Part shown: one piece after another, positions 5,209 through 64,000 of the stretch
Numbering within the stretch: position 1 is the first letter of the stretch
How the letters are laid out: the number at the start of each line of letters is the position of its first letter
Source: Burkholderiales bacterium
GTDB taxonomy: Bacteria > Pseudomonadota > Gammaproteobacteria > Burkholderiales > Burkholderiaceae_C
NCBI GenBank assembly: GCA_016223165.1
Contig: JACRPO010000021.1
Coordinates: 56,286 to 120,285 of the forward strand
Direction of reading: 5' to 3'
Length of the DNA: 64,000 nt
Notes under the pieces: generated by a model
Seen by the model: only the letters and a program-made list of their open reading frames with translations
Database searches by the model: none
What the model was told of the DNA's origin: nothing
Program-made: the position numbers and the translations under genes

Positions 5209-6108
5209 ATGACGCTGCAGCGGCGCCGCCTGGTCGGCGCCGCGCTGCTTCGGGTGCCGGCGCTTTCGGCAGCGGCGCTCGCGGGCTGCACGCTCGCACC
5301 CGATGCCGATCACGACGGTGACGATGCGTCGCGCGCGCTGCCGCTTGCGCGCGCGGTGCGCACGGCCTGGGTCCTGAGCTCGGGCGGACCGCGTGGCTTC
5401 GCGCACGTGGGCGTGCTGCGCGCGCTCGACGAGCTCGGCCTGGTACCCGACCTCATCGTCGGTGCCTCGGTCGGTGCGCTGGTGGGCGGCCTGCGCGCGG
5501 CCGGCCGCAGCGCCGCCGACATCGAGTTCCTCGCCCTCACGCTCAACGTGCTGTCGGTGGCCCGGCTGGCCCTCGGCAGCGCCGAGCGCCTGAGCGGCGC
5601 GCCGGTGGCCGAACTGATGCGCGAGTGCGTGCCGCAGCAGCGCATCGAGCGCCTGCCGGTGGCGCTGGCCTGCGTCGCTGCGCGCCGGCGCGATGCCGTG
5701 GCCACGGCGTTCACGGCGGGCGACATCGGGCTGGCCGTGCAGGCCTCGGCCGCCATCGAGGGCCGGCTGACCCCGGTGCGCATCCGCGGCGAGGCCTATG
5801 TCGACGCCGACTGGGTGGCGCCGCTGCCGGTGCGCATCGCACGTGGCCTCGGCGCGGCGCGCGTGCTCGCCGTCGACGCGAGCGTGCACCTGGACCGCGC
5901 CCCCGCCGGCGCCGCGCGCTACCGCGAAGGGGACCTGAAGAAGGAAGCGCTGGTGGCCGCCGACGCGCGCCACGCCGACCTCGTCATCAAGCCCGACTTC
6001 GGCTACTGGGTCAGCTTCTCGCGTGACTTCCGCGAGCGCGCCATCGCCGCCGGCTACCGGGACACGATGGCGCAGGCGGAGCGGCTGCGCGCACTGCATC
6101 GCGGCTGA
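5209..6108 (+). CDS. Patatin-like phospholipase family protein, probable lipoprotein
   Basis: N-terminal RRR plus hydrophobic stretch and lipobox LAGC; oxyanion loop LSSGGPRGFAHVG; nucleophile GASVG; Asp motif YVDAD in place of DGG. Confidence 0.8.
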   Translation: MTLQRRRLVGAALLRVPALSAAALAGCTLAPDADHDGDDASRALPLARAVRTAWVLSSGGPRGFAHVGVLRALDELGLVPDLIVGASVGALVGGLRAAGRSAADIEFLALTLNVLSVARLALGSAERLSGAPVAELMRECVPQQRIERLPVALACVAARRRDAVATAFTAGDIGLAVQASAAIEGRLTPVRIRGEAYVDADWVAPLPVRIARGLGAARVLAVDASVHLDRAPAGAARYREGDLKKEALVAADARHADLVIKPDFGYWVSFSRDFRERAIAAGYRDTMAQAERLRALHRG

Positions 6109-6160
6109 GCGCACTGCTGCGTCGGCGGATCGGCTGCGCACGCGAAGAGCGCCGAGCCCA

Positions 6161-6859
6161 TCAGGCCCCTGCTGCCGGCACCACCTGCGCCTGCCCCGGC
6201 ATCACCGGCAGCCTGCCTGCGGCGCGCAGCGCTTCCCACTCGGCCTGCAGGGCGGCGTCGCTCCTGTAGTGCGGCACTCGAAGGACGAGGCGCTTGCAGC
6301 GCGTGACGAACGCGTTCGTGCCGGCCACCTCGGCGTTCCAGTAGTGGTGCGCGCGCCGCAGGTTGAGCTCGGTGTCCACCTCGAAGTGGTCGCGCGACGT
6401 CTGGCCGCCGAAGACGTACAGCTTGCCGCGATAGATGCGCCAGGTGTTCGGCCCGCCGCCGCCGCCCCAGGGAACGGCGTAGTTGATGCCGTTGCTGCAG
6501 AAGCCGCCGAACTGCGGCATGTACTTCTTCGGGTCGCGCTCGAACTGCGCCTTGTGGGCTGCACTCGCGAAGCGCCATGTCACGCCGTGCAGGCTGGAGG
6601 TCATTGCCGGGTCGCCGGGCACGGCGGCGTTGCGCGTGAAGTAGGCGACCGCGTCGTGGCCCTCGAGCATCACCCCCGCCGGCACGCCACCCGTGCCGGT
6701 GCGGAAGGGCCCGTCGTTGGGGCTGTCGGGCTGCGCCGGCGCGTCGGGCGCCACGGGCGGAGCGCCGCAGGACGAAAGCGCCAGCGAGCCCGTCGCGGCG
6801 CCGATCAGCCCCAAGGCGCCGAGGCGCAGTGTCTGTCGCCGGCGCCCATCGACGGTCAT
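6161..6859 (-). CDS. YHS-domain lipoprotein (232 aa)
   Basis: Real start ATG at 6859 (MTVDGRRRQTLRLGALG...LALSSC), the C-terminal part of ORF 6161..8080; EGHDAVAYF, GVTWRFASAAHKAQFERDPKKYMPQFGGFCSNG and WRIYRGKLY match the periplasmic YHS family. Confidence 0.8.
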   Translation of the reverse strand: MTVDGRRRQTLRLGALGLIGAATGSLALSSCGAPPVAPDAPAQPDSPNDGPFRTGTGGVPAGVMLEGHDAVAYFTRNAAVPGDPAMTSSLHGVTWRFASAAHKAQFERDPKKYMPQFGGFCSNGINYAVPWGGGGGPNTWRIYRGKLYVFGGQTSRDHFEVDTELNLRRAHHYWNAEVAGTNAFVTRCKRLVLRVPHYRSDAALQAEWEALRAAGRLPVMPGQAQVVPAAGA

Positions 6860-6888
6860 CGGGTCGGCCCGGTCGGATGCTGCTCGGT

Positions 6889-8262
6889 TCAATCGAGATC
6901 CTTGGCCAGCCGCACGCCGCTGAACTGCCAGCGCGTCTCGGCGGGGAAGAAATTGCGATAGCTCGCGCGCATGTGCTCGCGCGGCGTTGCGCACGAGCCG
7001 CCGCGCAGCACGTACTGGTTGATCATGAACTTGCCGTTGTACTCGCCCACCGCGCCGGCCCAGGGACGGAAGCCCGGATAGCCCTGGTAGGACGACGTCG
7101 TCCACTCCCAGACGTCGCCGAAGAGCTGCATCGGCGCGCCGGGCGGCATGCGCCGCAGGGGCATCGGGTGCAGCGCTTCGCTGTCGACGAAGTTGCCCTC
7201 GGCCAGTGCGGCCGCCTCGTCGGCCTGCGCGGCATGCTCCCACTCGGCCTCGCTGGGCAGGCGCACCGGCTCGCCGCTCACGGCGGCGCGCCAGCGCGCG
7301 TAGGCATCGGCCTCGTACAGGCTCACGTGCACGACCGGCGTGTGCGGGTCGACCGGCACCTCGCCGTGCAGCGTGAAGTTCACCCAGCCGCGGCGGCCGC
7401 TGTCGTCGGTTCGCCGGCGCCAGTACATCGGGGCTTCGATGCGCTGCTGGCGCAGCCAGTCCCAGCCGGCCGCGAGCCACCAGCGCGGCTCGGCGTAGCC
7501 GCCGGCCTCGATGAACTCGCGCCACTCGCCGTGCGTGACCAGGCGGTTGCCGAGCGCATGGGGCCGCAGCTGCACGGCATGGCGCGGCGCTTCGTTGTCG
7601 AAGGCGAAACCTTCGCCGCCATGCCCGATCTCGACCGGGCCGCCATCGAAAGAGCACCAGCCGTGCGCCACCGGTGCCACCGCGGCCAGCGGCCACGCCG
7701 GCCGGTAGACCGGCGCCAGCGGACTGCAGCCGAGCAGGTGCTTGAGGTCGGTGAGGATCAGTTCCTGGTGCTGCTGCTCGTGCTGCAGGCCGAGCTCGAC
7801 GAGGGTGGCGATCGGGTCGCGGTGCGGCCCGGCCTGGCCGGCGTCGCCGGCCTCGAGCAATGCCGCCATGCGCTCGTCCACCGCGGCGCGGTAGGCCTTC
7901 ACTTCGGCGAGCCCGGGCCGCGTGACCAGGCCCCGCTGCGGCCTGGGATGCTGCTCGCCCACGCCGTGGTAGTAGCTGTTGAAGAGCACGCGGAAGGCCG
8001 GGTGATGCGGCCGGAAGCCGGCTTCGAATCGCTCGAGCACGAAGGTCTCGAAGAACCACGTGACATGCGCCAGGTGCCACTTCGTCGGGCTGGCGTCGGG
8101 CATCGACTGCACCTGGCAGTCGGCCTCGGAGAGCGGCGCCGCCAGCGCCATCGTCTGCGCACGCACGCGCGCGTAGCGCTCGGCGAGCGGCGTGGCGGCG
8201 GCACGGTGGGCCTGTGCGGCGGGTGCATGCGGTGCGGCCGGCGGGCGCGGGGCCTGCTTCAT
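6889..8262 (-). CDS. egtB: Ergothioneine-biosynthesis sulfoxide synthase EgtB (DinB_2 + FGE-sulfatase domains)
   Basis: QSMPDASPTKWHLAHVTWFFETF, FNSYY, RPQR, Fe ligands HEQQHQE, GDVWEWT, GEYNGKFM, LRGGSC, RASYRNFF; AGGAG RBS upstream. Confidence 0.9.
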   Translation of the reverse strand: MKQAPRPPAAPHAPAAQAHRAAATPLAERYARVRAQTMALAAPLSEADCQVQSMPDASPTKWHLAHVTWFFETFVLERFEAGFRPHHPAFRVLFNSYYHGVGEQHPRPQRGLVTRPGLAEVKAYRAAVDERMAALLEAGDAGQAGPHRDPIATLVELGLQHEQQHQELILTDLKHLLGCSPLAPVYRPAWPLAAVAPVAHGWCSFDGGPVEIGHGGEGFAFDNEAPRHAVQLRPHALGNRLVTHGEWREFIEAGGYAEPRWWLAAGWDWLRQQRIEAPMYWRRRTDDSGRRGWVNFTLHGEVPVDPHTPVVHVSLYEADAYARWRAAVSGEPVRLPSEAEWEHAAQADEAAALAEGNFVDSEALHPMPLRRMPPGAPMQLFGDVWEWTTSSYQGYPGFRPWAGAVGEYNGKFMINQYVLRGGSCATPREHMRASYRNFFPAETRWQFSGVRLAKDLD

Positions 8263-8296
8263 CGCGGCATCTCCTGCGGTGCGCCGTGGCGCTCTG

Positions 8297-8920
8297 TCAG
8301 GCGCGCCGGCGGCCGCGCGCGATGTAGCCCATGCCCCACTGCGTGCTCCAGCGCTCGAATCCGTCGCAACGCGGCGCGATCAGGTCCCAGGGCATCCAGA
8401 GGTCGGCAGGGCGCGCGTTGTAGGGCCGGTTCTTCAGCCAGGCCAGCAGGTTGAGCGGCCCCGTCCACCAGGGAAAGAACTTCATGCCGGCGATGGCCAG
8501 CCGGGCGCCGGGCTTCAACTGGCGCAGCAGGTTGTCCACCGCCTGCGGCGTGCGGGTGATGTCGTGCACGTAGTTGAAGAGCGCCGCGTCGGCCGCCTGC
8601 GGCAACTGCACGTCCTCGGCGCGGGCCTCGCGCAGCCAGACGCGCTCCTGCCAGCCCTCGCGCGCCACGCGCGCGCGTGCCTGCTCGAACATTTCCGGGC
8701 TCTGTTCGAAGGCGAGCACGCGCCCGCGCTCGCCCACCGCCGCCAGCAGCGGCGCAAAGCTCAGGCCCGTGCCGGCGCCGACATCGAGCACAACGTCGCC
8801 CGGCTGCAGCGCGAGCAGCGCGATCGTGCGCCGCCGCAGCGGCATCGTGAACTCGGCCGAGGCGTCGTAGCCAGCGGCGCGGCGGCGGTAACGCTCGATG
8901 GAGAGTTGATTGGGCGTCAT
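8297..8920 (-). CDS. Class I SAM-dependent methyltransferase (207 aa, stand-alone)
   Basis: Motif I VLDVGAGTG, acidic residue after strand 2 (LAFEQS), LKPGARL post-II motif. Confidence 0.85.
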   Translation of the reverse strand: MTPNQLSIERYRRRAAGYDASAEFTMPLRRRTIALLALQPGDVVLDVGAGTGLSFAPLLAAVGERGRVLAFEQSPEMFEQARARVAREGWQERVWLREARAEDVQLPQAADAALFNYVHDITRTPQAVDNLLRQLKPGARLAIAGMKFFPWWTGPLNLLAWLKNRPYNARPADLWMPWDLIAPRCDGFERWSTQWGMGYIARGRRRA

Positions 8921-9046
8921 GACGCGCAGGATCTGTCGGGCACGGCGGCGACACCTTACACCGATCTCTTGACGGTCTCGCGGCAGCCGCCGGGCGCCGC
9001 CGTCGCGCCCAGGGTTTCGGCGCGGAAGGAGTGCAGGGCGCAGGGG

Positions 9047-9397
9047 TCAGCCGGGCGCGCGCGACGCCGCGTGCAGCCCCATCACGCCCAGCACGATGAG
9101 CCCGATGCAGGCGAGCTTCAGGGCCGTGGCCGGCTCCTTGAAGTACAGGAAGCCGATGCCGGCCGTGAGCACCGTGCCCACGCCCGACCACACCGCGTAC
9201 ACGACCGAGAGCCCCAGCGTGCGGACGATGAGCGTGTTCAGCGCGAACGAGGCGGCGTAGAAGACGAAGATCAGCACCGAAGGCGCGAGGCGCGAGAAGC
9301 CCTCGGACAGCCGCATGCTCGTCGTGCCGGCCACCTCGAGCACGATGGCCACCCACAGCACGGACCAGGCCTGGCCCAGGGTCAATTGAACGCTCAT
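9047..9397 (-). CDS. SMR/DMT small multidrug-resistance family exporter (116 aa)
   Basis: WVAIVLEVAGTTSMRLSEGF with the conserved TM1 Glu, YAVWSGVG motif, four TM helices; AGGAG RBS 8 nt before ATG 9397. Confidence 0.9.
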   Translation of the reverse strand: MSVQLTLGQAWSVLWVAIVLEVAGTTSMRLSEGFSRLAPSVLIFVFYAASFALNTLIVRTLGLSVVYAVWSGVGTVLTAGIGFLYFKEPATALKLACIGLIVLGVMGLHAASRAPG

Positions 9398-9512
9398 GCC
9401 GGGCACTCCTGTCGATTCGCGGGTTGCCGCGCGCCGTGCGACGCTTCGCGGCCGAGGAGGCTACACGAGACGGGCGGGTCGGCAGTGGGCCGGGAGCGTC
9501 GGGCGGAGGCGG

Positions 9513-12500
9513 TCAGATTTCCAGCACCTCGCGCGACGGCGCGTCGGCGGGCGGTGCCACGGCCGCATGCGCCGAAGCGGGCAGCCGCTCGGCGAGCAGG
9601 CGGATGGTCGAGGCGTCGAAGACCTCGCGCAGCGGCAGCTTGGCGCCGAAGCCCTCGTCGATGAGGGCGAGCACGCGCGTGAACATCAACGAGTGGCCGC
9701 CGAGCTCGAAGAAGTCGTCGTTGACACCGATGCCGCGCACGCCGAGCAGGTCTTCCCAGATCGCGGCCAGGCGGCGCTCGATCTCGGTGGCGGGCTCCAC
9801 GTAGGCCGTCGACAGGGTCGGGCGCGTGGGAGTCGCGGCCGTGCCCGCGGCGGCTGCAGCGTCCGCAGTCCCGGTCGGTGCGGGGGAAACGAGCCGCGCT
9901 GTGTCGCCGAGTGCCGGCGCCGGAGGATGCCGGATGAGCTCGTGCTGGCGAACGACATCGTAGGTCTCCGCCACGACGCGCCGCCGACGGGACGCCAACA
10001 CGCGCTCGAGCGCTTCGATGCCCATGGCCGGCGCAATGGCCCCGGCCAGGTGCGCCGTCCAGTGCGCGCGCAGCTCGTCCGGCACCGTGAGCCGCGCCGC
10101 CATGCCCACCTCGCGCCACGCGCCCCAGTCGATGGCCACCACGTGTTGCCATGTCGGTGGCCGTTCCGTGCTCTCCACGAAGGCGTCGAACACGGCATTC
10201 GCCGCTGCATAGTCGCATGCGCCCGGCGCCGGCAGGACGGCGTTGACGCTGCTCACCAGCACGACGAGGTCGAGCGGTTCGCGGCTGAGCAACCGGCACA
10301 GGACCTGCAGCCCGGCAACCTTGGGGGCGAACACGGCGCGCGCCTCCTCGGCATTCGAGCGTCGAGCCAGGCTGCCGCGGCCGGCGATGCCGGCGGCATG
10401 GAAGACGCCGTGCAGCTCGCCGAAGCGTGCGCGTGCCGCGGCGAGTGCGTTGCCCATCGCCGCCTCGTCGGCGGCGTCCGCGGTGGCGAGCAGGACCTCG
10501 CCGCCGCGCGCCTCGATATCGCGCACGGCGCGCATCGCCTGCGCCTGGGCGTCGTCGGCGGGATGGCTGGCGATCCAGGCGTCCCATGTCTCCCGGGGGG
10601 GCATGGGCCTGCGTGACGTGAGCACGAGCCGCGCCGCCCATTGCTCGCCCAGCCAGCGGGCGATCGCGAGTCCCATGCCACCGAGGCCACCGGTGAGGAG
10701 ATAGGCGCCGCGGCGCCTGAGTGGCAGCGGGGCGGCGCTGCCGGCCGCGGCGGCAGGCAGGGCCAGGCGCTCGTAGCGGCGCACCCAGCGCCGCCCGGCG
10801 CGGTGCGCCACCTGCGGTTCGATGGCGGCATGCTGCGTTTCGTCCGCGAGCATCGACGCCGCGCGCTCGGCGGCCGCCGGCTCGAGGTCGCTCGCGTCGA
10901 GGTCGACCGTCCGCATCTGCAAGCCGGGAATCTCTCGCGGCAGCACCAGGACCGGCCCGGTGGCGAGCGCCTGCGTCACGCCCTGGGCCGCTTCGCCCAG
11001 CACCGACTCGGCAGCGGCGGTGGCATGCAGCACGCGCATCGGCGCTTCGATCGGCAGGTCGGGCAGCGCCAGGGCCAGGGTCACGAGGCCGTCGTAGCCG
11101 GGCTCGTGCGGCAGCACCGGCCACGCGGCGGCTGCGGCGGCACGCCGCGCCTCCTGTGCGGCGGCGCGGCGCAGGCCCCAAAGGTGCACGACGCCTGCCA
11201 GCGGGGTGCGCGAGGCGATCCCCACCAGGCGTTGCACATCGTCGGCTGAATCGACGCGCACGCGCCAACGGTCTCGGCCGATGGTCTCGAACCGTTCGCC
11301 GGCATCGGCACGCAGCACGGTGCGGCCCCGCCGGGTCAGTTCGTCGACAAGGGACGAGGTCAGGGGGCCCTCGTCACCGAGCACCAGCCAGCGCTCCGCA
11401 GCGTCCCCGACGACGCCGCCGACGCGGGCGGGGATGCCGTCGTCGCGGCTCCAGGTCGGGGCGTAGAACCAGTCGTCGACTCGTGCCGAGCGGTGGATCG
11501 ACGCCGCTGGTGCTGCCTTTTCGCGGCCGCTGCCGGCGGCGGTGACCGGCGATGCCGGTTCGACCGCGTGGCGCTGGCGCTCGAAGGGATAGGTCGGCAG
11601 CGGCACCCGGCGTCGAGCTGGCGCGCCGGCGTCACCGCCGGCCTGCACCGGCGCATGCCACCCGACCCGGCAGCCGGCCAGCCACAGCCGTGCCGTCGCC
11701 TCGAGGAAGAACTCGGCGTCGGGCCGGCTCTCGTTCGGCCTGCGCGTCGAGGCGAAGGCGCGGCGCGGCCCTTCGGCCCCGAGGTTCGCGCGTGCCAGGG
11801 CGGTCAGCGCCTGCCCGGGGCCGACCTCGAGAAACTGCAGCGTCGGGTCGGCCGCCAGCGTGCGCATGCCGGCCTCGAACAGCACCGGGCGGCGCAGGTG
11901 TTCGGCCCAGTATGCGGGTGAGGTGGCCTGCGCCGGCGTGATCCAGGTGCCGGTGACATTCGAGATGAACGGCCTCGCCGGCGGCGCCAGTTCGACGCGC
12001 TCGAGCAACGCGACGAAGGGAGGCACGGCCGCCGCCATCATCTCGCTGTGGAAGGCGTGCGAGGTCTGCAGCGTGCGCGCTTCGATGCCGGCCTGCTGCA
12101 GCCGCGCGACGAGCGACTCGATGGCCTGGGTTGGCCCGGACAGCGTGCACAGGGACGGCGCATTCACCGCCGCCACTTCCACCCTCGGCTGCAGCCAGCG
12201 CTGCACGTCGTTCGCGCCGAGGTGCACCGCGGCCATGCGGCCTGCGGGTTGCTGTTGCATCAGCCGCCCGCGCGCGGCCACGACGGCCAGTGCGTCGCCC
12301 AGCGACATCACGCCGGCCAGGTGGGCGGCGACGAACTCGCCGAGGCTGTGGCCGAGCATGGCGGCCGGCTCGATGCCGTGCGTATGCAGGCATCGGGCCA
12401 GCGCGTACTCGGTGACGAAGAGCGCCGGCTGCGTGATGCGCGTGACGTGCAGCGGGCCGGCGTCGGCCTGGGCGGCGCCGAACAGGAGCTCGCGGATGTC

Positions 12501-14247
12501 CATGGCGAGGTGCGGTTGCAGCAGCGCCGCACAGCGGTCCACCGCCTCACGGTAGGCAGGTTCCGCCTCGTAAAGGCCGCGGCCCATGCCCGCGTACTGG
12601 CTGCCCTGGCCGCTGAAGAGGAAGGCCACCGGGCGCGCCCCGCCCTCGTGCCGTGCAGCGAGCACACCGCTGCGCTGCGGCTCGCGCAATGCCGCGATGC
12701 CCTGCTCGCGCTGCTGCACCACCGCCGCGCGGCGGTGCGCCAGCGCCTGGCGTCCGACCTTCAGCGTGTAGACAACGTCCGCCAGGTCCTGCTCCGGGTG
12801 CGCCTCGAGGTGCGCGGCCAGGCGCTGGCCCACGGCGTCGAGCGCCGCCTCGGTGCGTGCCGACCAGACGAGCAGGTGCGGGCCCGTCGCTGTTGCCCGG
12901 GGCGCGGGCATGGGTGCCTCTTCCAGCACCGCGTGCGCATTGGTGCCACCGATGCCGAACGAGCTGACACCGGCACGCCGCGGCACGCCCGCCGGCGGCT
13001 CCCACACCGCCGCTTCGGGGCTGGCATGGAACGGGCTGGAAGCGAGCTTCAGCGTCGGGTTGGGCTTGGTGAAGTTGACGAGCGGCGGCAACGTGCGGTG
13101 CGTGAGCGCCAGCACCGTCTTGATGAGGCCGGCCACGCCGGCCGCCGCATCGAGGTGGCCGAGGTTGGCCTTCAACGAGCCGAGGCGGCAGAAGGCGACG
13201 TCGGGCGTGTCGGCGCGAAAGGCCTGCGTCAGTGCCTCGATTTCGATCGGGTCACCCAGTGGCGTGGCGGTGCCATGCGCCTCGACGTAGGTGACGCTGC
13301 GCGCCGGCACGCCGGCCAGCGCCTGTGCGGTGGCGATGACTTCGACCTGGCCCTCGACGCTCGGGGCAGTGAAGCCGGCCTTGTCGGCGCCGTCGTTGTT
13401 GACGGCGATGCCGCGGATCACCGCGTGCACGGTGTCGCCATCGGCCAGTGCCTGGTCCAGGCGCTTCAGCAGGACGACGCCGGCGCCGGCGCTGCTGCGC
13501 GTGCCCTGGGCGCCTTCGTCGAAGGGCCGGCAGCGTCCGTCAGGCGAAAGGATCATGCCCTCCTGGTGGAGGTAGCCGCTGCGCTGGGGGAAGAGGATCG
13601 AGACACCGCCGGCGAGCGCCATGTCGCATTCGCCGCGTTGCAGGGCGCGGCAGGCCACCTGCACCGCCACGAGCGAGGTCGAGCAGGCGGTCTGCACCGT
13701 CATGCTCGGGCCCTTGAGCCCGAGCTTGTAGGACACCCGCGTGCACAGGAAGTCCTTGTCGTTGGCGAGCATCAACTGGTAGCCGCCCACGGCGGCGGCC
13801 AGCGCCGGGTTGAGCATGATCCGGCCGTGCAGGTAGGTGTTCATGCTCGCGCCGGCATACACCCCCACCGACTCGGGCAACCCGGAGGTGCCGGCGGCAT
13901 AGCCGGCGTGTTCGAGCGCCTCGGCCGCGCACTCGAGGAAGACGCGGTGCTGCGGGTCGAGCACCTGCGCCTCGCGCGGCGCGTATCCGAAGTGGCCGGC
14001 GTCGAACTCCTCGCAGTGCTCGAGGAAGGTGCCGCGACGCACGTAACCCGCCTGGTTGCGCTGCTCGGCGCTCACGCCGGCCGCATCGAGGTCGGCGTCG
14101 GTGAGCTCCTCGAGAACCTCCACGCCCTCGGACACCTGGCGCCAGAAGTCGTCGAGATCGCGCGCGCCGGGGAAGCGCCCCGCCAGGCCCACCACCGCAA
14201 TGGCGTGCGCCGGCAGGGCCGCGTCGGTGCGAGGAAGGCCGGTCTGC

Positions 14248-14255
<8 letters not shown>
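9513..14255 (-). CDS. Type I PKS module 8: KS-AT(malonyl)-KR-ACP, no thioesterase
   Basis: Start ATG 14255 (MSEQTG), overlapping the NRPS stop; hybrid-type KS (VQTACSTS, HGTATPLGDPIE, NLGH); AT GHSLG + HAFH; KR TGGLGGMG and DYAAAN, no LDD; carrier FFELGGHSL; ends PSREVLEI. Confidence 0.93.
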
Positions 14256-17705
<3,450 letters not shown>

Positions 17706-17709
<4 letters not shown>

Positions 17710-20700
17710 AGGGTGAGCTCCTCCCGCGCCTCGTCGCCTTGATGCGCGCCCGCATCGGCGAAGTAGCCCGCCAAGTGGCCCGCCAGGGCGGCCGTCGTCG
17801 GCCACTCGAAAGCGGCGGTGGCCGGCACCGGCCGGCGCACGGCGGCCTGCAGCCGGTTGCGCAGTTCGACCGAGGTCAGCGAGTCGAGCCCGAAGCTGCT
17901 GAAGGGCTGGTCGTCGACGAGCGAGCGCCCGCCGTCGGGCAGCGCCAGCACCGTGGCCAGTTCGCGCCGTACCAGGGCCACCAGCTGCGCCAGGCGCTCT
18001 GCGGGTGGCAGGGCGGCGAAGTCCAGCGCAGCCGCGCGCGGACCTTCGGCGTGCGCCGCACCCATGCCGGCGCGGGCCTGGGCCACGAGCTCCTGCCAGA
18101 TCGGTGGGGCCGCATTCGACCCCAGTTGCAGCAGCAGCCGGGGCCAGTCCACCGGTGTCACGGCGACATGGGCGAAGCCCTCGCGCAGCACCAGGCCCAG
18201 CGCCTGGTGGCCCTGCGCCGGCGTGAGCGAAGACAGGCCCATGGCGGCCGCGCGGTCCACCGTGCTGCCGCGGGCGGCCATGCCCACGTCCTTCCAGGCG
18301 CCCCACGCGATGCTGCAGGCGGCGTCGTCGTGCACGCGGCGGTGGTGCGTCAGTGCATCGAGGAAGGCGTTGGCCGCGACGTAGTTGCCCTGCCCCGCGG
18401 AGCCGAGGACAGCCGACATCGACGAGTACATCGCGAAGAAGTCCGGCTTCAGGCCGTGGCGCAGCAGCGCCCGGTGCAGGCGCCAGGCCCCGTCGGCCTT
18501 GGGCGCCATCACGGCCGCCAGCCGCTCGCGCGACTGGCGCACGAGCATGCCGTCGTCGAGCACCGCGGCGCCGTGCAGCACGCCGCCGAGCGGCGCGGCG
18601 CTGTCGAGCACGGCGCGCATCACGGCGTCGATGCCGGCGGCGGTGGCGACGTCGGCGGCGACCACCGACACGCTCGCGCCGTCGGCGCGCAGCTTGGCGA
18701 TGACCTGCTGCGCTTGCGCGTCCGGCGCCGATCGTCCGGCCAGCACGAGATGGCGTGCGCCCTCGCCGGCCAGCCAGGCGGCCGCCAGCAGGCCGAGCCC
18801 GCGCAGGCCGCCGGTGACGAGGTAGGTGGCGTCGTCGCGCACCGCATTCGCTGGGCGCCGCGGCACGACGGCATGGCGGAAGACGACGCGTCCGGTGTGG
18901 CGCGCCTGTGCCATGTAGCGGAAGGCCTCGGCCGCCTGCTCGAACGCGAACGTCGTGCAGGGCAGGATGGGCAGCAGCCCGGCCTCGATTTCCTTCAGCA
19001 CGCGCGCGAAGATGCGCCCGACCATCTGCGGCGTGTCGCGTGCGTGGTCGTTGCAGTCGACGACGTGATAGCGGATGCCGCGGTCCAGCGCCGCCACCTG
19101 CTCGTGCGTCCACAGGTTGCGCTTGCCGATCTCGAGGAAGATGCCGTCCGGCGCCAGCACCTCGAAGCTGCGGTCGAGCATGGCGCCGGTGAGCGAGTTG
19201 AGCACGATGTTCACGCCGGCACCGCCGGTGATCCGCATCACCTCGTCGGCGAAGGCCGGGCTGCGCGAGTCCAGCACATGCTGCACGCCCAGCCGCGCCA
19301 GCACGGCGCGCTTGTCGGGGCTGCCCGCCGTCGCGAAGATCTCCGCGCCGGCCCGCCGGGCCAGCGCGATCGCCGCCATGCCGACGCCGCCGGCACCGGA
19401 GTGGATGAGTACGCGCTCGCCCGCCTTCATGCCGGCGATCTCGTTGAGCGTGATGTCGGCCGTGAGGTAGGCGGTGGGGATCGCTGCGCCGAGCTCGAAG
19501 TCGAGCCGCGCCGGCAGCGGCGCCACGAATTCCCAGCGCGTGGTGGCATGGCTGGCGAAGGCGCCGGAGACCATGGCCACGACGCGATCGCCGAGCCGGA
19601 AGCCGCGCACCTCGCTGCCCAGGGCGACGATCTCGCCGGCGCAGTCGCTGCCCAGGCGCTCGATCTCGCCCGGGTACAGGCCGAGGGCGCTCAGCACGTC
19701 GCGGAAATTCAGGCCGCTGGCGCGCACGCGGATCTCGATCTCGGCGGGGCCCGGAGGCCGGCGCTCGGCGGCCGCGATGGCGAGGTTCTCGAGCGTGCCG
19801 CGTTCCTGGATGTGCAGCCGGGTCGGCGCCTCGTCGGTCGGCGGCGCCGTGTGCCGCCGCTGGCGCGCCAGGCGCGCGACGAAGCGCACTCCCTTGCGCA
19901 GCGCGACGCGGCTCTCGTGGCCCGTGGCCGCTGCCGGCGGTGCCGCGCTCATCTCGGCCAGTTCGTCGGCCAGCTGGCGCGCCTCGGCGCTGCTCGTGGG
20001 GCTGGACTGCGGGTCGAGGTCCACGTGGGTGACGCGCAGCTCCGGGTGCTCCAGTGCGGCGACGCGCGCCAGGCCGGCCAGGGGCGCCTGTTCGATGCAC
20101 AGCGTCTCGCTGCCATCGACGGCTTCGGTGCCCGCGGTCACGAAGCACAGCGGCGTCGGCTGGCCGTGCGCCGCCAGGGCCTGCAGCAGCAGCAGTGCCG
20201 CCTCGGTGCCCATGCGCTGGATCATGCTGGGCAGGTCCTCATCGTCGCGCAGCGCCGGCACGGCGAGCGGCCACAACGACACGATGCCGGCCAGCGGCGG
20301 GCCCTCGTTGTCGAGGAGTCGCCGGTGGTCGCCCGGCGAGCCGGGATCGATCTCGACGACCCCCGGCGCGGCAGCATCGAACGTGCCGCCCGCGACGACG
20401 CGCGTCACGGCGCCGCCGCGGCGAACGATCTCGGCGGCGACGCGCTCGCCCCGGCCCTGGCCCTCGTCGAGCACGAGCCAGCGGCCTTGCAGGCCGTGCT
20501 CTGCCGCGGCGAGCGGCTGGCTGTGCCAGGCGACCGCGTACAGCCAGTCCGCCGCCTGTGCATCGGCGCGCTGGCGGAACATGTCGCGGCTGGCGCGGCG
20601 GCAGCGCAGCCCTTCGACCTGCATCACCGTGGCGCCACCGGCATCGACGATGGTGATGTCGATGAGCAGCATGTCGCCGCGAGTGCGCGGCGCGCGCACC

Positions 20701-23700
20701 GCGGCGTGGCTGGTGAGGCGGCCCGAGGGCGGCACACCCCAGCGGATGCGCTCCACCCCGATCGACAGGTACATGCGTTCGTCTTCCGCGCCGGGCAGCG
20801 AGGCGATGGCGACCGCCGAGGCGTGGAAGCACGCGTCCAGCAGCGCGGGATGGAAGGCGTACCGCTCGCCCTCGGCCTGCACGGAGGGGTCGGCCTCGAC
20901 CTCGCCGAGGCCCTCGCCGGCACCGCCCACGGCGCTGCGCATGACGTTGAACGAGGCTCCGAAGTCGGCGCCGCGGCTGCGTGCCTGCTCGTAGAAGGCG
21001 GCGATGTCGACGGCCGTGGTGCAGCGCGAGCGTGCCGCAGCGAGGTCTGGCGCCGCCGGCGCAGGGTCGGCCTGCGGCCTGCCGATGAGGGCGCTCGCAT
21101 GCAACGTCCAAGGCGACTCCGCGCGCGCGGCGTCGCGGCTGAAGACGCGCACGCGGGTCGCGGCGGCGGCGCCCTCGCCGTCCACCAGCACCTGCATGAG
21201 GCGCTCTTCGTCCGGCCGCAGCACCATCGGCTCGCCGACTTCCACGTGCTCGATGGTGGACAGGGCGGATCCGTGCACCTGGCGGGCTGCGGCCAGCGAG
21301 ATCTCGAGATAGGCCGTGAGCGGCATCACCGCTTCGCCGCCGATGCGATGGTCGACCACCCAGGCCGGATTGCCCGTGTTCAGGGCGCGTTCGAAGGCCG
21401 CCGCGACGCCGGCCACCGGAATGCGCGCGCCGAGCAGTTCGTGCACGGGCCGGCCCGACGTGCTGGATGCGCGGCGCGCCGGCTTGCGGTAGTCGATCAG
21501 GTAATGCTGGCGCTGGAACGGCGTGCTCGGCAGGCGCACGCTGCGCCGCTCGCCACGCCGCGTGTAGGCGGCCCAGTCGATGCGGCCGCCGCGCACGTGC
21601 AGGCGCGCGACGCTGTCGGCGATCGTCTCGATGCCGCTGCGCTGGCGCCGCAGCGACGCGTGCCAGGTGAGCGCGCCGGCGCCGGCCGTGGCCACAGCAC
21701 CCAGCGTCTGCTGCGCCAGGCCGATCAGCGTGGGATGCGGGCCGATCTCGACGCAGGCCTGCATCCCGGCGCCGGCCAGCGCCTTCACGCCGGCCTCGAA
21801 ATCGACGGCTTCGCGCACGTGTCGGCACCAGTACTCCGGCATGCGCGCGGCCCACTCCGACCACTCGAGCGTGCGGCCGGTCAGGCTGGAGATCCAGTTC
21901 AGCTGCGGTTGGGCATGTTCGACGCCGGCCGCGACGCGACGGAATTCCGCCACCATCGGCGCCATCAGCGGCGAATGGAAGGCGTGCGACACGGCAAGGC
22001 CCTGCGTGCGCAGCCCGAGTGCCGCCAGGCGCGCCGCGGCGCCTTCGACCGCGGCGCGCGCGCCGGCGATCACCCAGCTGCCCGGGGCGTTGCGGGCGGC
22101 GATGGACATCTCGGCCGCGTTCGCCTCGACCTCGCGCGCCACTTCGCGCGCCAGTTGTCCGGCTTCACCCTGCACGGCGACCATCACGCCGCCTGCGGGC
22201 AGCGCCTGCATCAGGCGGCCGCGCGCCGCGATGAGCCGGGCGCCGTCCTCGATGCTGAACACCCCCGCCACCGCGGCGGCGGCGAACTCGCCCACGCTGT
22301 GGCCGATGACGGCGCCGGGCTCGACCCCCCAGCTGCGCCACAGCGCCGCCAGCGCCACCTGCAGCGCATAGAGCGCCGGCTGGGTGCAGCCGGTCTGGTC
22401 GAGCAGGCCAGCGGACTCCTTGAACAGCAGTTGCAGCAGCGGCCGCGGCAGGCTGGCGTCGAGCACCGCCGCGCAGCGCTCGAGCGCGGCGCGGAACACG
22501 GGCTCGGTGTCGTGCAGCTCGCGCCCCATGCCCACGTACTGCGAGCCTTGCCCCGTGAACAGGAAGGCCGTGCGCACGCGCGCCGCGGCCTGGCCGCGCG
22601 CGATGGTCGGCGCGGCGGCGGCCGCGACCTCGCCATCGGGGCCCACGGCGCGAAGTTGCGCCACCAGCGCGGCGACGTCCGGGCCGACCACGGCCAGCCG
22701 GTGCACGAAGTGGGCGCGGCCGGTCGCCGCCGTGGCACACACGTCGGCCAGCTGTTCCGGCGTCACGGTGCCGAGCTGTTCGAGATGGTCGGCGTACCGG
22801 CGGGCGACGTCGCCGAGCGCCGCTTCGCTGCGGCCCGAAAGCGGCAGCACGAACAGCGGCCGCGGCGCCGGCGGCGAGGCCCCGGCAGGCGTGACCTCTT
22901 CGAGGATGGCGTGGGCATTCACGCCGCTGAACCCGAAGGCGCTGACACCGGCACGACGCGCCGCGCCGTGCGCGGGCGCCCAGTCGTGCAGGCGGGTGCT
23001 GACGCGCACCGGCATGCGGTCCCAGGGGATCGCCGGCGACGGCTCGCGCACATGCAGGCTGGCCGGCAGCTGCCTGTGCTGCAGCGCCAGCACGACCTTC
23101 ATCATGCCGGTCACGCCGCTGGCCGCCTCGAGGTGGGCGAGGTTGCTCTTCACGGAGCCCACTTCGAGCGGCTGCGCCGCATCGCGGCCTTCGCTGTACA
23201 CCGCGGCGAGCGCCTCCACCTCGATCGGGTCGCCGAGCGAGGTGCCGGTGCCGTGCGCCTCGACGTAGCTCACGTCGGCCGGCGCCAGCCGCGCCGCGGC
23301 GAGCGCCTGCCGCAACACCGCCTGCTGCGCGATGCCGTTGGGCACGGTGAGGCCGCTCGAGTGCCCGTCCTGGTTGATGGCCGAGCCGCGGATCAGTGCC
23401 AGCACGTTGCGGCCCTTGGCGCGCGCCACGGAGAGGCGCTCGAGCACGACCAGGCCGCAGCCTTCGCCGCGCACGAAGCCGTTGGCCGAGGCGTCGAAGG
23501 CCTTGCAGCGCCCGTCGGGCGACAGCATGCCCCACTTGGAGATCATGACGTAGGCCTCGGGCGACATCATGACGTTGACGCCGCCGGCGACCGCGAGCTC
23601 GCTCTCGCCGTTGCGCAGGCTCTGGCAGGCCGTGTGGATGGCCACGAGCGACGACGAGCAGGCCGTGTCGATGGCCATGCACGGCCCCTGCAGGCCGAGC

Positions 23701-24320
23701 GTGAACGAGACCCGGCCGGCGGCCGCGTTCAGCGCCGTGCCGGTGGCCAGGTAGATGTCGCTGCGTGCCGGGTCTTCGACGTCGATGCGGTTGGAGTAGT
23801 CGGTGCCGGTGATGCCGACGAAGACGCCGGTGCGCGTGCTGTCGAGGCTGTCGGGCGCGATGCCCGCATCTTCGAGTGCCTCCCAGGTCACCTCGAGCAG
23901 CAGGCGCTGCTGCGGGTCGAGCGCGCGTGCCTCGCGCGGCGAGATGCCGAAGAACGTCGGCTCGAACCCGGCGATGTCCTGCAGGAAGCCGCCGGCCTTG
24001 GTGCGCGACTTGCCCGGCGCTTCGGGGTTGGGGTCGTAGAAGGCATCCACGTCCCAGCGGTCGGCGGGGATCTCGCCGACCATGTCGAGCCCTTCGCTGA
24101 GCACCTTCCAGTAGCCGGCGATGTCGACCACGCCGCCGGGCAGCCGGCAGGCCATGCCGACGATGGCGATGGGTTCGTGCGCAGCGGCCTCGGCGGCGTC
24201 GAGGCGGGCCTGCAGGCGATCGATGGCCGCCAGCGCGTTGTGCAGCAGGTGGCGGCGATCGCCCCCGGCCGCAACCGCGACGCCGGCCTGAGAGGAGGGT
24301 TCGGAGCGATCCGCGGACAT
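17706..24320 (-). CDS. Type I PKS module 7: KS-AT(malonyl)-DH-ER-KR-ACP
   Basis: KS DTACSSS/HGTGT/NLAH; AT GHSVG + HAFH; DH HRIGGEAVMP and DACFH; ER GLNFRD, LIHSGAGGVG; KR VLDD, GQGNY; ACP GLDSL; C-terminal tail AREELTL. Start 24320 preferred over 24335. Confidence 0.93.
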
Positions 24321-24344: not shown

Positions 24345-25249
24345 TCAGTCGGCCGCGCCGCCGGGCGCGGGCGCGAGCGCGGGCCGCTGCCGCACGGCAG
24401 GATCCAACCACCACAGCGCCATCGCCACCGCCACGACGACCACGGCGCCGAGGGTGGACGACCACGACCACGCATGCTGCCCGGCCAGCCACGCCGCGCC
24501 GATGCTGGGCAGCAGCTGCAGGCCGGTGGCCGGGGCGGTGAGCGAGACCGGTGCGGCGGCGGCCATGCGCTCCAGCGCATAGAGCGCCCCGAAGCCGAGC
24601 ACGCCGACGCTGACCATTCCGGCCAGGCCCATTGCGTCGGGCCAGACCCAGCGGCCCGGCAGCAGCGGCAGCATCAGCACCACCACGCCGGCGGCCGTGT
24701 AGAAGAGGTTGGCACGCAGCCGCTCGTGTCGCAGCGCGCGCGTGGCGACGACGAACAGCACGAAGGAAAGCGTCATGCCGAGCGCCAGCGCCACCATGGT
24801 GGCCGTGGGCAGGCGCTCGTGGTGGAAGAACAGGTTCGCGCCCGCGCAGGCCGCGGCGGCCGCGATCCACAACGTCGCCGGGGCCCGTTCACCCCCGAGG
24901 ACGTGGGCACACAGCAGCAGCAGGATGGGCGAGCTCCAGAACACCGCCATCAGCGTGTCGGGAGCCATGTTGCGCTGCATGGCCAGCAACCAGCAGATGG
25001 GCATGGCCACCATCATCGCGGCGCGTGAGACCTGGAGCCAGGGCCGGGCCGTGCGCACGAGCTGCATCGGTTCGCGCCGGCCCCAGAGCAGGCCCATCAG
25101 CACCAGCTGGGCCGCGAAGCGCACCCAGACGACCTGGAGGGCGGAGTAGCGCTCGATGAGCAGCCCGGCCACGAGCTCCTCGCCTGCCCACAAGGTCACG
25201 CACACCAGCTTCCAGAGCAGGCTCTCCCGCCCGGGGCTCAGCGCTGTCT

Positions 25250-25253
<4 letters not shown>
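24345..25253 (-). CDS. DMT/EamA-family transporter (302 aa)
   Basis: About 10 hydrophobic segments; EamA-like SALQVVWVRF, FWSSPIL...LGGER; ATG overlaps the PKS6 stop (ATGA at 25250-25253). Confidence 0.82.

Positions 25254-32180: not shown

Positions 32181-40294
<8,114 letters not shown>

Positions 40295-40298
<4 letters not shown>

Positions 40299-44961: not shown

Positions 44962-44965
<4 letters not shown>
40295..44965 (-). CDS. Type I PKS module 4: KS-AT-cMT-ACP, no reductive domains (1556 aa)
   Basis: Start ATG 44965 (MTLPGDERAALSPVKQALLE), overlapping the PKS3 stop; KS DTACSSS; AT GHSLG + ISQSFHS; MT TLFPGGS, EIGAGTGSTT, ANAVH; ACP GMDSL; no KR NADPH motif present. Confidence 0.92.
40781..40840 (-). 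repeat. 12-bp-period His repeat (HQAA-HQAA-HPSA-HEAS-HEAL) in the PKS4 MT-ACP linker
   Basis: Translation shows His every fourth residue, five times. Confidence 0.75.

Positions 44966-51620
<6,655 letters not shown>

Positions 51621-51624
<4 letters not shown>

Positions 51625-56458: not shown

Positions 56459-56462
<4 letters not shown>
51621..56462 (-). CDS. Type I PKS module 2: KS-AT-KR-ACP (1613 aa)
   Basis: Start ATG 56462 (MTEATDRLAHLSPAKRALLERRL), overlapping the PKS1 stop; KS DTACSSS; AT GHSVG + VEFAFHS; KR TGGYGGLG, no LDD (AAAALAY), LAGYAAAN; ACP GLDSL. Confidence 0.93.
53541..53576 (-). repeat. 12-bp in-frame tandem repeat x3 (LPLSMSLSMPLS) in the PKS2 AT-KR linker
   Basis: cgagagcggcat / cgaaagcgacat / cgagagcggcag. 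Confidence 0.8.
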
Positions 56463-63309
<6,847 letters not shown>

Positions 63310-63313
<4 letters not shown>

Positions 63314-63999
63314 TGCGCGACGGCACCAGCCGGCTGGGCAGCGAGCGGCGCCAGCAGATGCGCCAGCTCGGCAACGAGCTGGCCGCGCACCGCCGCGTCG
63401 TTGAAGTAGAAGTGCCCGCCGGCGAACTGCCGCACCTGCACGGGGCCATGCGTGTGCTCGTGCCAGGGCGCCAGCACCTCGCGCTGGGCGCGCGTGTCGC
63501 CGGTACCGCCGAACACGGTGATGGGGCAGTCGAGCAGGGGGCCGGGCAGGTGGCGGTGCGTCTCGATGGCGGTCATGTCGGCGCGCATGGCCGGCAGCAG
63601 CAGCTCGAGGATGTCGCGATGCTGCAGGATCTCGGCCGGGATGCCGCCATAGCGGCGGTCGAGCTCGGCGATGAAGGACTCGTCGGGCAGCGGGTGCAGC
63701 GGCGCGTCGGGCTCGCTCAGGTGCGGCGCGCGCCGGGCGGAAACGACGAGGCGTGCCGGCCCGGGCAGGCCTTGCGCGCGCAGCGCGCGCGCCACCTCGT
63801 AGGCGACGAGGCCACCCATGCTGTGGCCGAAGAACGCGTACGGGCGGTCGAGCTGCGGCGCGAGGTTCGGCAGCAGTGCCTCGACGATGGCCTTGACGGA
63901 CTTCAGGGGCGGTTCGCGCAGGCGGTTCTCGCGGCCCGGCAACTGCACCGCGAGGACCTCGATCGAGGATGGCAGGGCGAGCGCGAACGGGCGATACAC
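63310..63999 (-). CDS. Type II thioesterase (GrsT/RifR-like), 5' end outside the window
   Basis: VQLPGRENR, FFGHSMGG nucleophile, MRAD, GGHFY; starts mid-protein at the window edge; stop overlaps the PKS1 start. Confidence 0.92.
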
Positions 64000-64000
64000 C

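What the first reader, a model, noticed from the sequence alone, without database searches (positions are those of the whole stretch)
9513..9800. Last module has no release domain and ends in an unpaired docking tail (..PSREVLEI)
Seen: PKS8 stops about 25 aa after its carrier domain, with no TE, reductase or C domain. Its tail REVLEI resembles the PKS7 tail REELTL, which precedes the NRPS carrying a TubC-type docking domain. The carrier is PCP-like (FFELGGHSL), and the next gene is an SMR exporter. Knowledge: short acidic beta-strand tails bind TubC-type beta-hairpin N-terminal docking domains. Inference, three options: (a) another NRPS/PKS acceptor is encoded upstream or elsewhere (split cluster); (b) PKS8 docks back onto the only visible acceptor, the Gly NRPS, giving repeated 4-amino-3-hydroxybutyryl units; (c) the discrete TEII releases the chain, as in polyether pathways (NanE/MonCII).
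Basis: partly seen in the sequence, partly recalled or inferred. Interest (0 to 1): 0.68.

Follow-up and report, generated by a model that had tools for sequence, protein, structure and literature searches.

The report
Orphaned docking tail on release-less PKS
The last enzyme of this polyketide/peptide assembly line ends in a short, conserved docking tail; in related bacteria that tail hands the product to one more enzyme carrying the release function, but here that enzyme is missing from the gene cluster, so how the product comes off is unknown.

Summary
PKS8 (9513-14255, minus strand) is KS-AT-KR-carrier with no TE, reductase or C domain. Its carrier is NRPS-type (FFELGGHSL), and it ends 22 residues after the carrier in ..SREVLEI.

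The tail is not chance. In 89 of 91 homologues (54-75% identical) the last six residues follow R-E-[E/V]-[I/L/M]-x-[F/I/L], behind a hypervariable linker. This is a SLiM-type tail for a beta-hairpin docking (TubC_N) domain.

In every sister lineage sampled, the next gene is a further single-module NRPS with an N-terminal beta-hairpin domain. It carries either a TE domain or two alpha/beta hydrolase genes behind it.

The window's clade (four independent assemblies) is nested within those lineages. It has lost that NRPS and its release enzymes from the locus. PKS8 is followed directly by an SMR pump and an EgtB block, then housekeeping genes. The tail is still invariant in the clade, with clade-specific changes (E to V at -4, acidic residue lost at -7).

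An upstream acceptor is excluded: PPTase, serine hydrolase, GntR and mutase lie there. The present partner is unresolved. It is either an unlinked beta-hairpin protein or re-docking onto the cluster's own Gly NRPS. TEII is family-wide, so probably an editing enzyme.

This is a new variant of a known docking system, of moderate interest.

The parts
9516..9533 (-). C-terminal docking tail (SLiM) REVLEI of PKS8; stop codon at 9513-9515
   Evidence: Translation. Conserved in 89/91 homologues; V at -4 occurs only in the window clade.
9534..9581 (-). Variable, Ala/Pro-rich linker between carrier and tail (16 aa)
   Evidence: Hypervariable in length and sequence among homologues.
9582..9773 (-). PCP-type carrier domain of PKS8 (phosphopantetheine Ser codon at 9690-9692, motif FFELGGHSLM)
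   Evidence: Pfam PP-binding. Score 158 against the NRPS PCP, versus 31-67 against the PKS ACPs. Clade-specific changes in helix 2: MFTRVLAL versus MATRVLAR.
9513..14255 (-). PKS8: KS-AT(HAFH, malonyl)-KR-PCP-tail, 1580 aa, no release domain
   Evidence: Exact protein found in Logan assemblies L001 and L002.
14248..17709 (-). NRPS (1153 aa): beta-hairpin docking domain-C-A(Gly)-PCP, with a basic C-terminal helix [11 protein letters not shown]
17533..17679 (-). The only beta-hairpin docking (TubC_N) domain in the window
   Evidence: Pfam PF18563, E 2e-15. Six-frame HMM search gives a single hit. PDB hits 2JUG, 5T7Z, 6CGO and 8AQQ.
17709..17726 (-). PKS7 docking tail REELTL, the cognate tail of the NRPS beta-hairpin domain
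   Evidence: The homologous tail in L006 is REEMTL.
17706..24320 (-). PKS7: KS-AT-DH-ER-KR-ACP
63310..64000 (-). Discrete type II thioesterase (260 aa in full; N-terminus cut by the window end). It is the first gene of the operon and its stop overlaps the PKS1 start.
9047..9397 (-). SMR efflux protein. It occupies the position held by the terminal NRPS in sister clusters.

Best explanation
PKS8 is by descent a penultimate module, not a designed terminal one. Its PCP-type carrier and its last six residues (REVLEI) form a SLiM-type donor interface. The disordered tail lies as a beta-strand against the beta-hairpin docking domain at the N-terminus of a downstream condensation-domain protein, which brings the carrier to that C domain.

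In all sampled sister lineages the acceptor is one more single-module NRPS encoded directly downstream. It is either beta-hairpin domain-C-A-PCP-TE, or beta-hairpin domain-C-A-PCP followed by two alpha/beta hydrolases. That NRPS adds a last amino acid and releases the chain.

In the window's clade this NRPS and its release enzymes are gone from the locus. The carrier and tail are still under purifying selection and have shifted: E to V at -4, and loss of the acidic residue at -7. They therefore still serve a partner, probably a changed one.

Shown: the architecture, tail conservation, acceptor adjacency in sister clusters, the clade nested among them, absence of an acceptor in the window and in both flanks.

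Inferred: that the tail binds a beta-hairpin domain at all, and who the present partner is. My preferred guess (about 0.4) is a beta-hairpin-domain protein encoded elsewhere in the genome, either an NRPS-TE or a stand-alone C or TE. Re-docking onto the cluster's own Gly NRPS is the main alternative.
For: Architecture and PCP nature.

Tail conservation against a variable linker: R 87/89 and E 89/89.

Downstream acceptor with TubC_N in sister clusters:
- L005 and L006: NRPS plus two hydrolases.
- L093: NRPS-TE with a beta-hairpin domain fragment 0 bp after the tail.
- L010 outgroup: beta-hairpin domain 6 bp after the tail.
- Same-contig pairs P0134/P0243, P0137/P0253 and P0139/P0246.

General rule in incidental loci: 13 of 17 SLiM-like tails outside the clade have a beta-hairpin domain within 50 bp.

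The NJ tree places the seven REVLE[IL] proteins as one clade nested inside the REELEF group. Four independent clade members show PKS8-SMR-MT-EgtB synteny with no NRPS. No remnant of the NRPS or hydrolases is left in the window. The changes at -4 and -7 are specific to the clade, 7/7 against 0/82 for V at -4.

Literature: only the last ~5 residues of a SLiM bind, through salt bridges and a hydrophobic face. Beta-hairpin domains occur on C, Cy, E, TE, MT, reductase and halogenase proteins (PMC9113145).
Against: The rest of the genome could not be searched. No NRPS-TE homologue with the source contig's length (336,658 bp) appeared among the best 120 hits. That is weak evidence against a partner on the same contig.

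Split clusters are a minority among bacterial BGCs.

A SLiM can be conserved yet dispensable in vivo, as in the FR-901375 system (PMC13324335). Conservation alone therefore does not prove that the tail is needed.
Confidence: 0.6

Rival explanations
1. Re-docking. The PKS8 tail binds the only beta-hairpin docking domain in the cluster, that of the Gly NRPS. The C domain then takes the PKS8-bound chain as donor, and the NRPS-PKS8 pair is used again. Each round adds a 4-amino-3-hydroxybutyryl unit (+101.05 Da). TEII or water ends the cycle.
For: - It is the only beta-hairpin domain in the window.
- The tails share R-E-x-L-x-[L/I]: REELTL and REVLEI.
- The carrier is PCP-type, as expected for a C-domain donor.
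- The clade-specific loss of two acidic residues fits a domain with fewer basic beta2 residues. The NRPS here has RLSINAP, against RLRV(S/T/N)A in the lost acceptor type. This is my inference.
- SLiM/beta-hairpin pairs are promiscuous and drive iterative module use in the rhabdopeptide NRPS (PMC9113145).
- Cross-talk between non-cognate pairs has been shown (PMC13324335).
Against: - The loop has no built-in stop or release step.
- The NRPS beta-hairpin domain is almost unchanged from orthologues in clusters that keep a separate acceptor: RLSINAP against RLSVNAP. So there is no sign of adaptation on the domain side.
- The 'orphan beta-hairpin domain' seen in relatives is weak evidence. L008's internal domain may be a fusion relic. 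L007's two NRPS genes share 1.7 kb of 100% identical DNA, which is gene conversion or an assembly artefact.
Confidence: 0.25
2. TEII release. The discrete type II thioesterase hydrolyses the N-acyl-4-amino-3-hydroxybutyryl thioester from the PKS8 carrier. The tail is an inherited element with little or no present role.
For: - TEII is the only thioesterase in the cluster and is translationally coupled to PKS1.
- Type II thioesterases can offload acyl thioesters from carrier proteins in vitro, e.g. Bamb_5926 (PMC13324335).
- A SLiM can be dispensable.
Against: - TEII homologues sit in the same position in sister clusters of the subgroup whose terminal NRPS carries its own TE domain. TEII is therefore ancestral and not a compensating gain.
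- The tail is invariant in seven clade proteins that are only 63-75% identical and whose adjoining linkers have diverged freely. That argues against a functionless relic.
Confidence: 0.12
3. Release by another nearby hydrolase, or a decaying cluster. Candidates are the beta-lactamase-fold serine hydrolase next to the PPTase (outside the window), acting like LovD, or the patatin-like protein at 5209-6108. Alternatively the cluster is inactive after losing its loading and release ends.
For: - A beta-lactamase-fold protein with an SxxK motif is conserved beside the PPTase in two clade members.
- Patatin synteny is conserved.
- The clade also lacks the E1/E2-ACP genes found upstream in a sister cluster.
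Against: - Both hydrolases lie beside housekeeping genes (methylmalonyl-CoA mutase; gltA/sdh) and may simply be flank.
- Neither carries a beta-hairpin docking domain.
- All nine synthase genes are intact, and the clade has kept them across 63-75% divergence. That argues against decay.
Confidence: 0.05

Closest known systems
[quoted passage not shown]
   Same: A short disordered C-terminal tail follows a carrier domain. Its last residues are charged plus alternating hydrophobic. The partner fold (TubC_N) is present on the next NRPS in sister clusters and on this cluster's own Gly NRPS.
   Different: The tail here has no acceptor gene next to it or anywhere in the cluster. It also carries a clade-specific Val where 82 of 89 relatives have Glu.
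Enacyloxin chain release: Bamb_5917 PCP-SLiM handing to Bamb_5915 beta-hairpin domain-C (PMC9113145, PMC13324335)
   Same: A polyketide chain sits on an NRPS-type PCP with a SLiM tail and is taken off by a C-domain protein recruited through a beta-hairpin docking domain. There is no TE on the PKS.
   Different: In enacyloxin the PCP is a separate protein and the C-domain protein is encoded in the cluster. Here the PCP is fused to KS-AT-KR and no such C-domain protein is visible.
Rhabdopeptide NRPS Kj12A/B/C (iterative use through promiscuous SLiM/beta-hairpin pairs; PMC9113145)
   Same: There are more donor tails than strictly needed, and one beta-hairpin domain could accept two tails. That would give repeated use of modules and a product ladder.
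   Different: Rhabdopeptide is NRPS-only and ends with a terminal C domain that uses a free amine. Iteration here is only a hypothesis, and no terminating step is evident.
Release by discrete thioesterases in TE-less PKSs
   Same: A TE-less last module together with a discrete alpha/beta-hydrolase thioesterase in the cluster.
   Different: The TEII here is a PF00975 enzyme shared with sister clusters of the subgroup that has a terminal TE domain. That points to an editing role.

Membership tests
SLiM-type C-terminal docking tail (SLiM / beta-hairpin docking class) | Short (<15 aa) tail at the extreme C-terminus after a carrier domain, joined by a flexible linker | tested here: met
   22 residues follow PP-binding. 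The linker varies in length and sequence while the last 6 residues are conserved.
SLiM-type C-terminal docking tail (SLiM / beta-hairpin docking class) | Last ~5 residues have charged residues for salt bridges alternating with hydrophobic residues | tested here: met
   R-E-V-L-E-I; the family consensus is R-E-E-[ILM]-x-[FIL]. The feature is as described in PMC9113145. One acidic position is Val in this clade.
SLiM-type C-terminal docking tail (SLiM / beta-hairpin docking class) | A cognate N-terminal beta-hairpin docking domain on the downstream subunit | tested here: inconclusive
   Met in sister clusters L005, L006, L093 and L010. Not met within the window or its flanks, where the Gly NRPS has the only such domain.
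SLiM-type C-terminal docking tail (SLiM / beta-hairpin docking class) | Physical binding of the tail to a beta-hairpin docking domain | not testable with these tools
This needs ITC/NMR or a multimer prediction.
Beta-hairpin docking domain (TubC_N, PF18563), for the NRPS N-terminus | Match to the Pfam model above its cut-off, and similarity to solved domains | tested here: met
   57.1 bits against a cut-off of 26. PDB hits: 2JUG E 1.3e-6, 5T7Z, 6CGO, 8AQQ.
NRPS-type peptidyl carrier protein, for the PKS8 carrier | LGGHSL core motif and closer similarity to PCPs than to PKS ACPs | tested here: met
   FFELGGHSLM. Score 158 against the NRPS PCP, versus 31-67 against the seven ACPs. 54% identity over 80 aa to the PCP of L093's NRPS.
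Terminal (chain-releasing) PKS module | C-terminal TE, reductase or condensation-type release domain | tested here: not met
   No such Pfam domain is found and the protein ends 22 aa after the carrier. None of the 91 homologues of 1400-1650 aa lists PF00975.
Type II (discrete) thioesterase | Stand-alone PF00975 alpha/beta hydrolase of about 250 aa in a PKS/NRPS cluster | tested here: met
   PF00975 E 3e-41. The full-length protein is 260 aa. Whether it edits or releases is not testable here.

The most novel reading that the evidence does not exclude
After losing its terminal NRPS, this clade re-targeted the PKS8 tail to the beta-hairpin docking domain of its own Gly NRPS. A hybrid NRPS-PKS module pair would then be used repeatedly under the control of SLiM/beta-hairpin cross-talk. 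The products would be lipids capped by one or more 4-amino-3-hydroxybutyrate units, cut off by the type II thioesterase. This would be the first docking-programmed iteration of a mixed NRPS/PKS pair.
Probability: 0.22. Interest if true: 0.72.

Novelty: new variant of a known kind. Interest (0 to 1): 0.45.

Why it matters
SLiM/beta-hairpin docking pairs are used to predict the order of subunits in assembly lines and to re-wire them. Here a donor tail has outlived the loss of its neighbouring acceptor and kept evolving. This gives a natural experiment on how such interfaces are re-targeted.

It also gives a concrete rule for annotators: a TE-less 'last' module with a conserved R-E-x-hydrophobic-x-hydrophobic end is a penultimate module, so look for its acceptor.

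The cluster belongs to a large family with no informative name in any source. More than 90 homologues were found in Burkholderiales, Gammaproteobacteria and myxobacterial metagenomes. The family's product is unknown, so solving release in this clade would also help to define that product.

Tried and rejected
1. Exact look-up of PKS1, with either the GTG or the ATG start, to read beyond 64000 found nothing. I got there instead through the full-length TEII.

They returned almost no true family members. I used their loci only as an incidental control set for tail/beta-hairpin adjacency.

4. A search for the lost NRPS-TE type found no protein on a contig of the source's length. This is uninformative for other contigs of the genome.

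5. The 'orphan beta-hairpin domain in relatives pairs with the orphan tail' argument was considered and downgraded. L007's two NRPS genes share 1.7 kb of identical DNA, and L008's internal domain sits at a direct fusion joint.

6. The idea that the SMR/MT/EgtB/YHS genes take part in release was rejected. They are an EgtB (TIGR03440, 555 bits) / YHS (seleno)protein block.

7. No deletion scar or remnant of the NRPS or hydrolases lies downstream of PKS8.

8. The promoter/terminator scan of 6000-9900 found nothing.
Full report
**What is in the window.** The window is 68-76% G+C. On the minus strand it carries one long operon:

| Gene | Coordinates | Content |
|---|---|---|
| TEII | 63310-64000, cut by the window end | discrete thioesterase |
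| PKS1 | 56459-63310 | KS-AT-DH-ER-KR-ACP |
| PKS2 | 51621-56462 | KS-AT-KR-ACP |
| PKS3 | 44962-51624 | KS-AT-DH-ER-KR-ACP |
| PKS4 | 40295-44965 | KS-AT-cMT-ACP |
| PKS5 | 32181-40298 | KS-AT-DH-cMT-ER-KR-ACP |
| PKS6 | 25250-~32146 | KS-AT-DH-cMT-KR-ACP |
| EamA | 24345-25253 | transporter |
| PKS7 | 17706-24320 | KS-AT-DH-ER-KR-ACP |
| NRPS | 14248-17709 | TubC_N-C-A-PCP |
| PKS8 | 9513-14255 | KS-AT-KR-carrier |

Downstream lie an SMR pump, a small methyltransferase, EgtB, a YHS protein, a patatin-like protein on the other strand, and gltA-sdhE-sdhBADC.

PKS1 to PKS6 end in helical ..LSDEE..LL.. docking tails. PKS2 to PKS7 begin with the matching ..LSPxKxALL.. helix. The line is therefore collinear. 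The sequence occurs in groundwater metagenomes.

**The observation.**
- PKS8 has no TE, reductase or C domain. PP-binding ends 22 residues before the stop, and the protein ends ..APPADAPSREVLEI.
- Its carrier is NRPS-type: FFELGGHSLM. Its alignment score is 158 against the cluster's NRPS PCP, versus 31-67 against the seven PKS ACPs.
- PKS7 ends ..DEAREELTL in front of an NRPS whose N-terminus is a beta-hairpin docking domain. Pfam TubC_N gives 57 bits, and the domain matches the solved TubC, EpoB, Bamb_5915 and AerJ domains.
- The A domain reads DILQLGMIWK, a glycine code. This is a hand reading against the GrsA positions from my own knowledge.
- The same PKS8 protein and the same PKS8-SMR junction occur in two independent Logan assemblies, so the end of the gene is not an assembly artefact.
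- A six-frame HMM search finds only one beta-hairpin docking domain in the 64 kb window.

**The tail is a conserved motif.** A search with PKS8 returned a large family of proteins of about 1500-1600 aa, 54-75% identical. All are KS-AT-KR-PCP, and none of the 91 homologues has a thioesterase domain.
- Of 91 such proteins, 89 end in the same motif. The two exceptions end differently and may be incomplete.
- Position -6 is R in 87 of 89.
- Position -5 is E in 89 of 89.
- Position -4 is E in 82 and V in 7.
- Position -3 is I, L or M in 85 of 89; position -1 is always F, I or L.
- Positions -7 and -8 are mostly D or E.
- The linker between carrier and tail differs freely in length and sequence.

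This is the signature of a short linear docking motif. According to the docking-domain review, only the last five or so residues bind. They form a strand against beta2 of the docking domain, with salt bridges on one face and hydrophobic contacts on the other (PMC9113145).

**What the tail docks to in relatives.**
- In two clusters whose PKS8 homologues are 54-57% identical, the gene starting at the stop codon of the homologue is a second NRPS: TubC_N-C-A-PCP, 1105-1122 aa, with a Gly-like code. These are L005 (an ENA 3.6 Mb contig) and L006 (uncultured Hydrogenophaga). Two alpha/beta hydrolases follow. The hydrolases resemble the exosortase-A-associated hydrolases 1 and 2, below the curated cut-off.
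- In the nearest outgroup (L093, 63% identical, tail REELEF) the next gene is C-A-PCP-TE, with a beta-hairpin domain fragment directly after the tail.
- Full-length homologues of that protein are TubC_N-C-A-PCP-TE. Three of them share contig lengths with PKS8 homologues: 62,681, 20,109 and 36,854 bp. Their A domain is not of the Gly type.
- A more distant relative (L010, 44% identical, tail VEEVVF) also has a beta-hairpin domain 6 bp downstream.

**The window's clade has lost the acceptor.** Seven proteins end in REVLE[I/L]: the window's plus six that are 63-75% identical.
- Four independent members could be read in context: the window (with L001), L007 (GCA_022842825.1), L008/L009 (JGI metagenomes) and L090. 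In all four, PKS8 is followed by SMR, methyltransferase and EgtB. Where the contig reaches further, YHS, patatin, gltA and sdh follow.
- No remnant of the second NRPS or of the hydrolases is left in the window.
- A neighbour-joining tree of the 91 proteins, rooted with two outgroups, puts the seven as one clade nested inside the REELEF group. That group in turn sits beside the REEI.. lineages.
- Every sampled neighbouring lineage has the downstream NRPS. One loss or relocation in the clade's ancestor is therefore the simplest history.
- Val at -4 occurs in 7 of 7 clade members and 0 of 82 others. Position -7 is S, T, P or A in all seven, against D or E in 75 of the other 82.
- Helix 2 of the carrier also carries clade-specific changes, MFTRVLAL against MATRVLAR.

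A tail that stays invariant while its linker drifts is under selection. A tail that has also lost two negative charges has probably changed partner.

**The flanks.**
- Upstream of TEII in this organism (L003) lie an Sfp-type PPTase, a beta-lactamase-fold serine hydrolase on the other strand, GntR and methylmalonyl-CoA mutase. A relative (L094) shows the same order. There is no module and no beta-hairpin domain there, so the 'upstream' half of option (a) is refuted.
- In a sister cluster (L175/L176) the genes before the PPTase are a 2-oxoacid dehydrogenase E1 and an E2 fused to a carrier domain, presumably a starter-loading system. The window's clade lacks these too.
- PKS1 begins directly with a KS carrying the active-site Cys and has no docking helix.
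- The clade's cluster therefore lacks both the loading and the release ends seen in the nearest outgroup. This modestly raises the chance that functions are supplied from elsewhere.

**TEII.** TEII homologues are numerous. In the sister contigs L175/L176 the TEII gene occupies the same first position in the operon. Its longest contig has the same length as that of the subgroup's PKS8 homologue P0132, and that subgroup's terminal NRPS carries a TE domain. TEII is therefore ancestral, and an editing role is the economical reading. It remains the only thioesterase visible here, and type II thioesterases can offload carrier-bound acyl chains (PMC13324335).

**Who is the partner now?** I could not test binding. 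I also could not search the rest of the genome.
- For an unlinked partner: the carrier remains PCP-type; the tail is maintained; both ends of the ancestral pathway are missing from the locus; and beta-hairpin domains are known on C, TE, reductase and other enzymes.
- For re-docking onto the Gly NRPS: it is the only such domain present; the two tails share R-E-x-L-x-[L/I]; its beta2 strand (RLSINAP) has fewer basic residues than that of the lost acceptor type (RLRV..), which would suit a less acidic tail; and promiscuous pairs drive iteration in rhabdopeptide synthesis.
- Against re-docking: the NRPS docking domain is nearly the same as in clusters that keep a separate acceptor, and a loop has no obvious stop.
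- The extra NRPS modules in L007 and L008 do not help. L008's internal docking domain sits at a direct fusion joint. L007's two NRPS genes share 1.7 kb of identical DNA.

My estimates are:

| Present route | Probability |
|---|---|
| Unlinked beta-hairpin partner | about 0.4 |
| Re-docking onto the Gly NRPS | about 0.25 |
| TEII alone, with an idle tail | about 0.12 |
| Other | the rest |

**Comparison with known systems and verdict.** The element works like the donor half of a SLiM/beta-hairpin docking pair. It resembles most closely the PCP-SLiM that hands the enacyloxin chain to a beta-hairpin-domain C protein. It meets the sequence criteria of that class. The criterion 'cognate acceptor present' is met in relatives but not in this locus.

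The novelty is modest. It is a known docking system in an unusual state, orphaned but maintained and altered, within a large family that no source names informatively. Interest is moderate. It would rise if the tail proves to program repeated use of the NRPS-PKS8 pair.

Noticed in passing
window 6161-9397 (minus strand): The block SMR pump - 207-aa methyltransferase - EgtB (TIGR03440, 555 bits, above cut-off; also 363 bits to selenoneine synthase SenA, below cut-off) - YHS-domain '(seleno)protein' family NF041384. No EgtD-type histidine methyltransferase is adjacent. This may be an ergothioneine- or selenoneine-like unit. It is syntenic in all clade members.
   Followed up: partly
window 56459-63310 (PKS1); loci L175/L176 3185-6766: PKS1 starts directly with an active-site-Cys KS, with no loading domains and no docking helix. 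A sister cluster has a 2-oxoacid dehydrogenase E1 and an E2 fused to a PP-binding domain just before PPTase-TEII, a likely starter-loading system. The window's clade lacks these, so chain initiation is as unexplained as release.
   Followed up: partly
window 40295-44965 (PKS4); also PKS5 and PKS6: PKS4 is KS-AT-cMT-ACP with no KR. It should leave an alpha-methylated beta-keto group. Three consecutive modules carry C-methyltransferase domains.
   Followed up: no
window 24345-25253: An EamA-type transporter gene is embedded between PKS6 and PKS7, inside the synthase operon. The same arrangement is seen in L006 and L008.
   Followed up: no
L007 1225-8139: Two tandem beta-hairpin domain-C-A-PCP genes share about 1.7 kb of 100% identical DNA (A domain and start of the PCP). 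Their docking and C domains are only 25-40% identical. This is either very recent gene conversion or a MAG assembly artefact.
   Followed up: partly
L008 2590-9450: A two-module NRPS (2286 aa) keeps an intact TubC_N domain in the middle, fused directly behind the first PCP. This is a natural fusion of two formerly separate docking partners. The first module's A domain starts DFxxW, which is not Gly.
   Followed up: partly
L006 17928-24566: The two alpha/beta hydrolases after the terminal NRPS resemble exosortase-A-associated hydrolases 1 and 2 (TIGR03100/03101, below cut-off). A second, convergent megasynthase (4214 aa; AMP-binding-carrier-KS-AT...) is also followed by two Hydrolase_4 genes. 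This suggests that such a hydrolase pair is a recurrent release device.
   Followed up: no
L003 1424-2365 and L094 1112-2014 (just outside the window, beyond 64000): A short (300-313 aa) beta-lactamase-fold serine hydrolase with an SxxK motif is divergently transcribed from the PPTase and conserved in two clade members. It has a weak likeness to an acyl-transferring member of the fold (3-succinylated cholic acid synthase, 75 bits against a cut-off of 800).
   Followed up: partly
window 9582-9773: The recognition helix after the phosphopantetheine Ser has clade-specific substitutions: GGHSLM-F-TRVLA-L against GGHSLM-A-TRVLA-R in the rest of the family. These run parallel to the changes in the tail.
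   Followed up: partly
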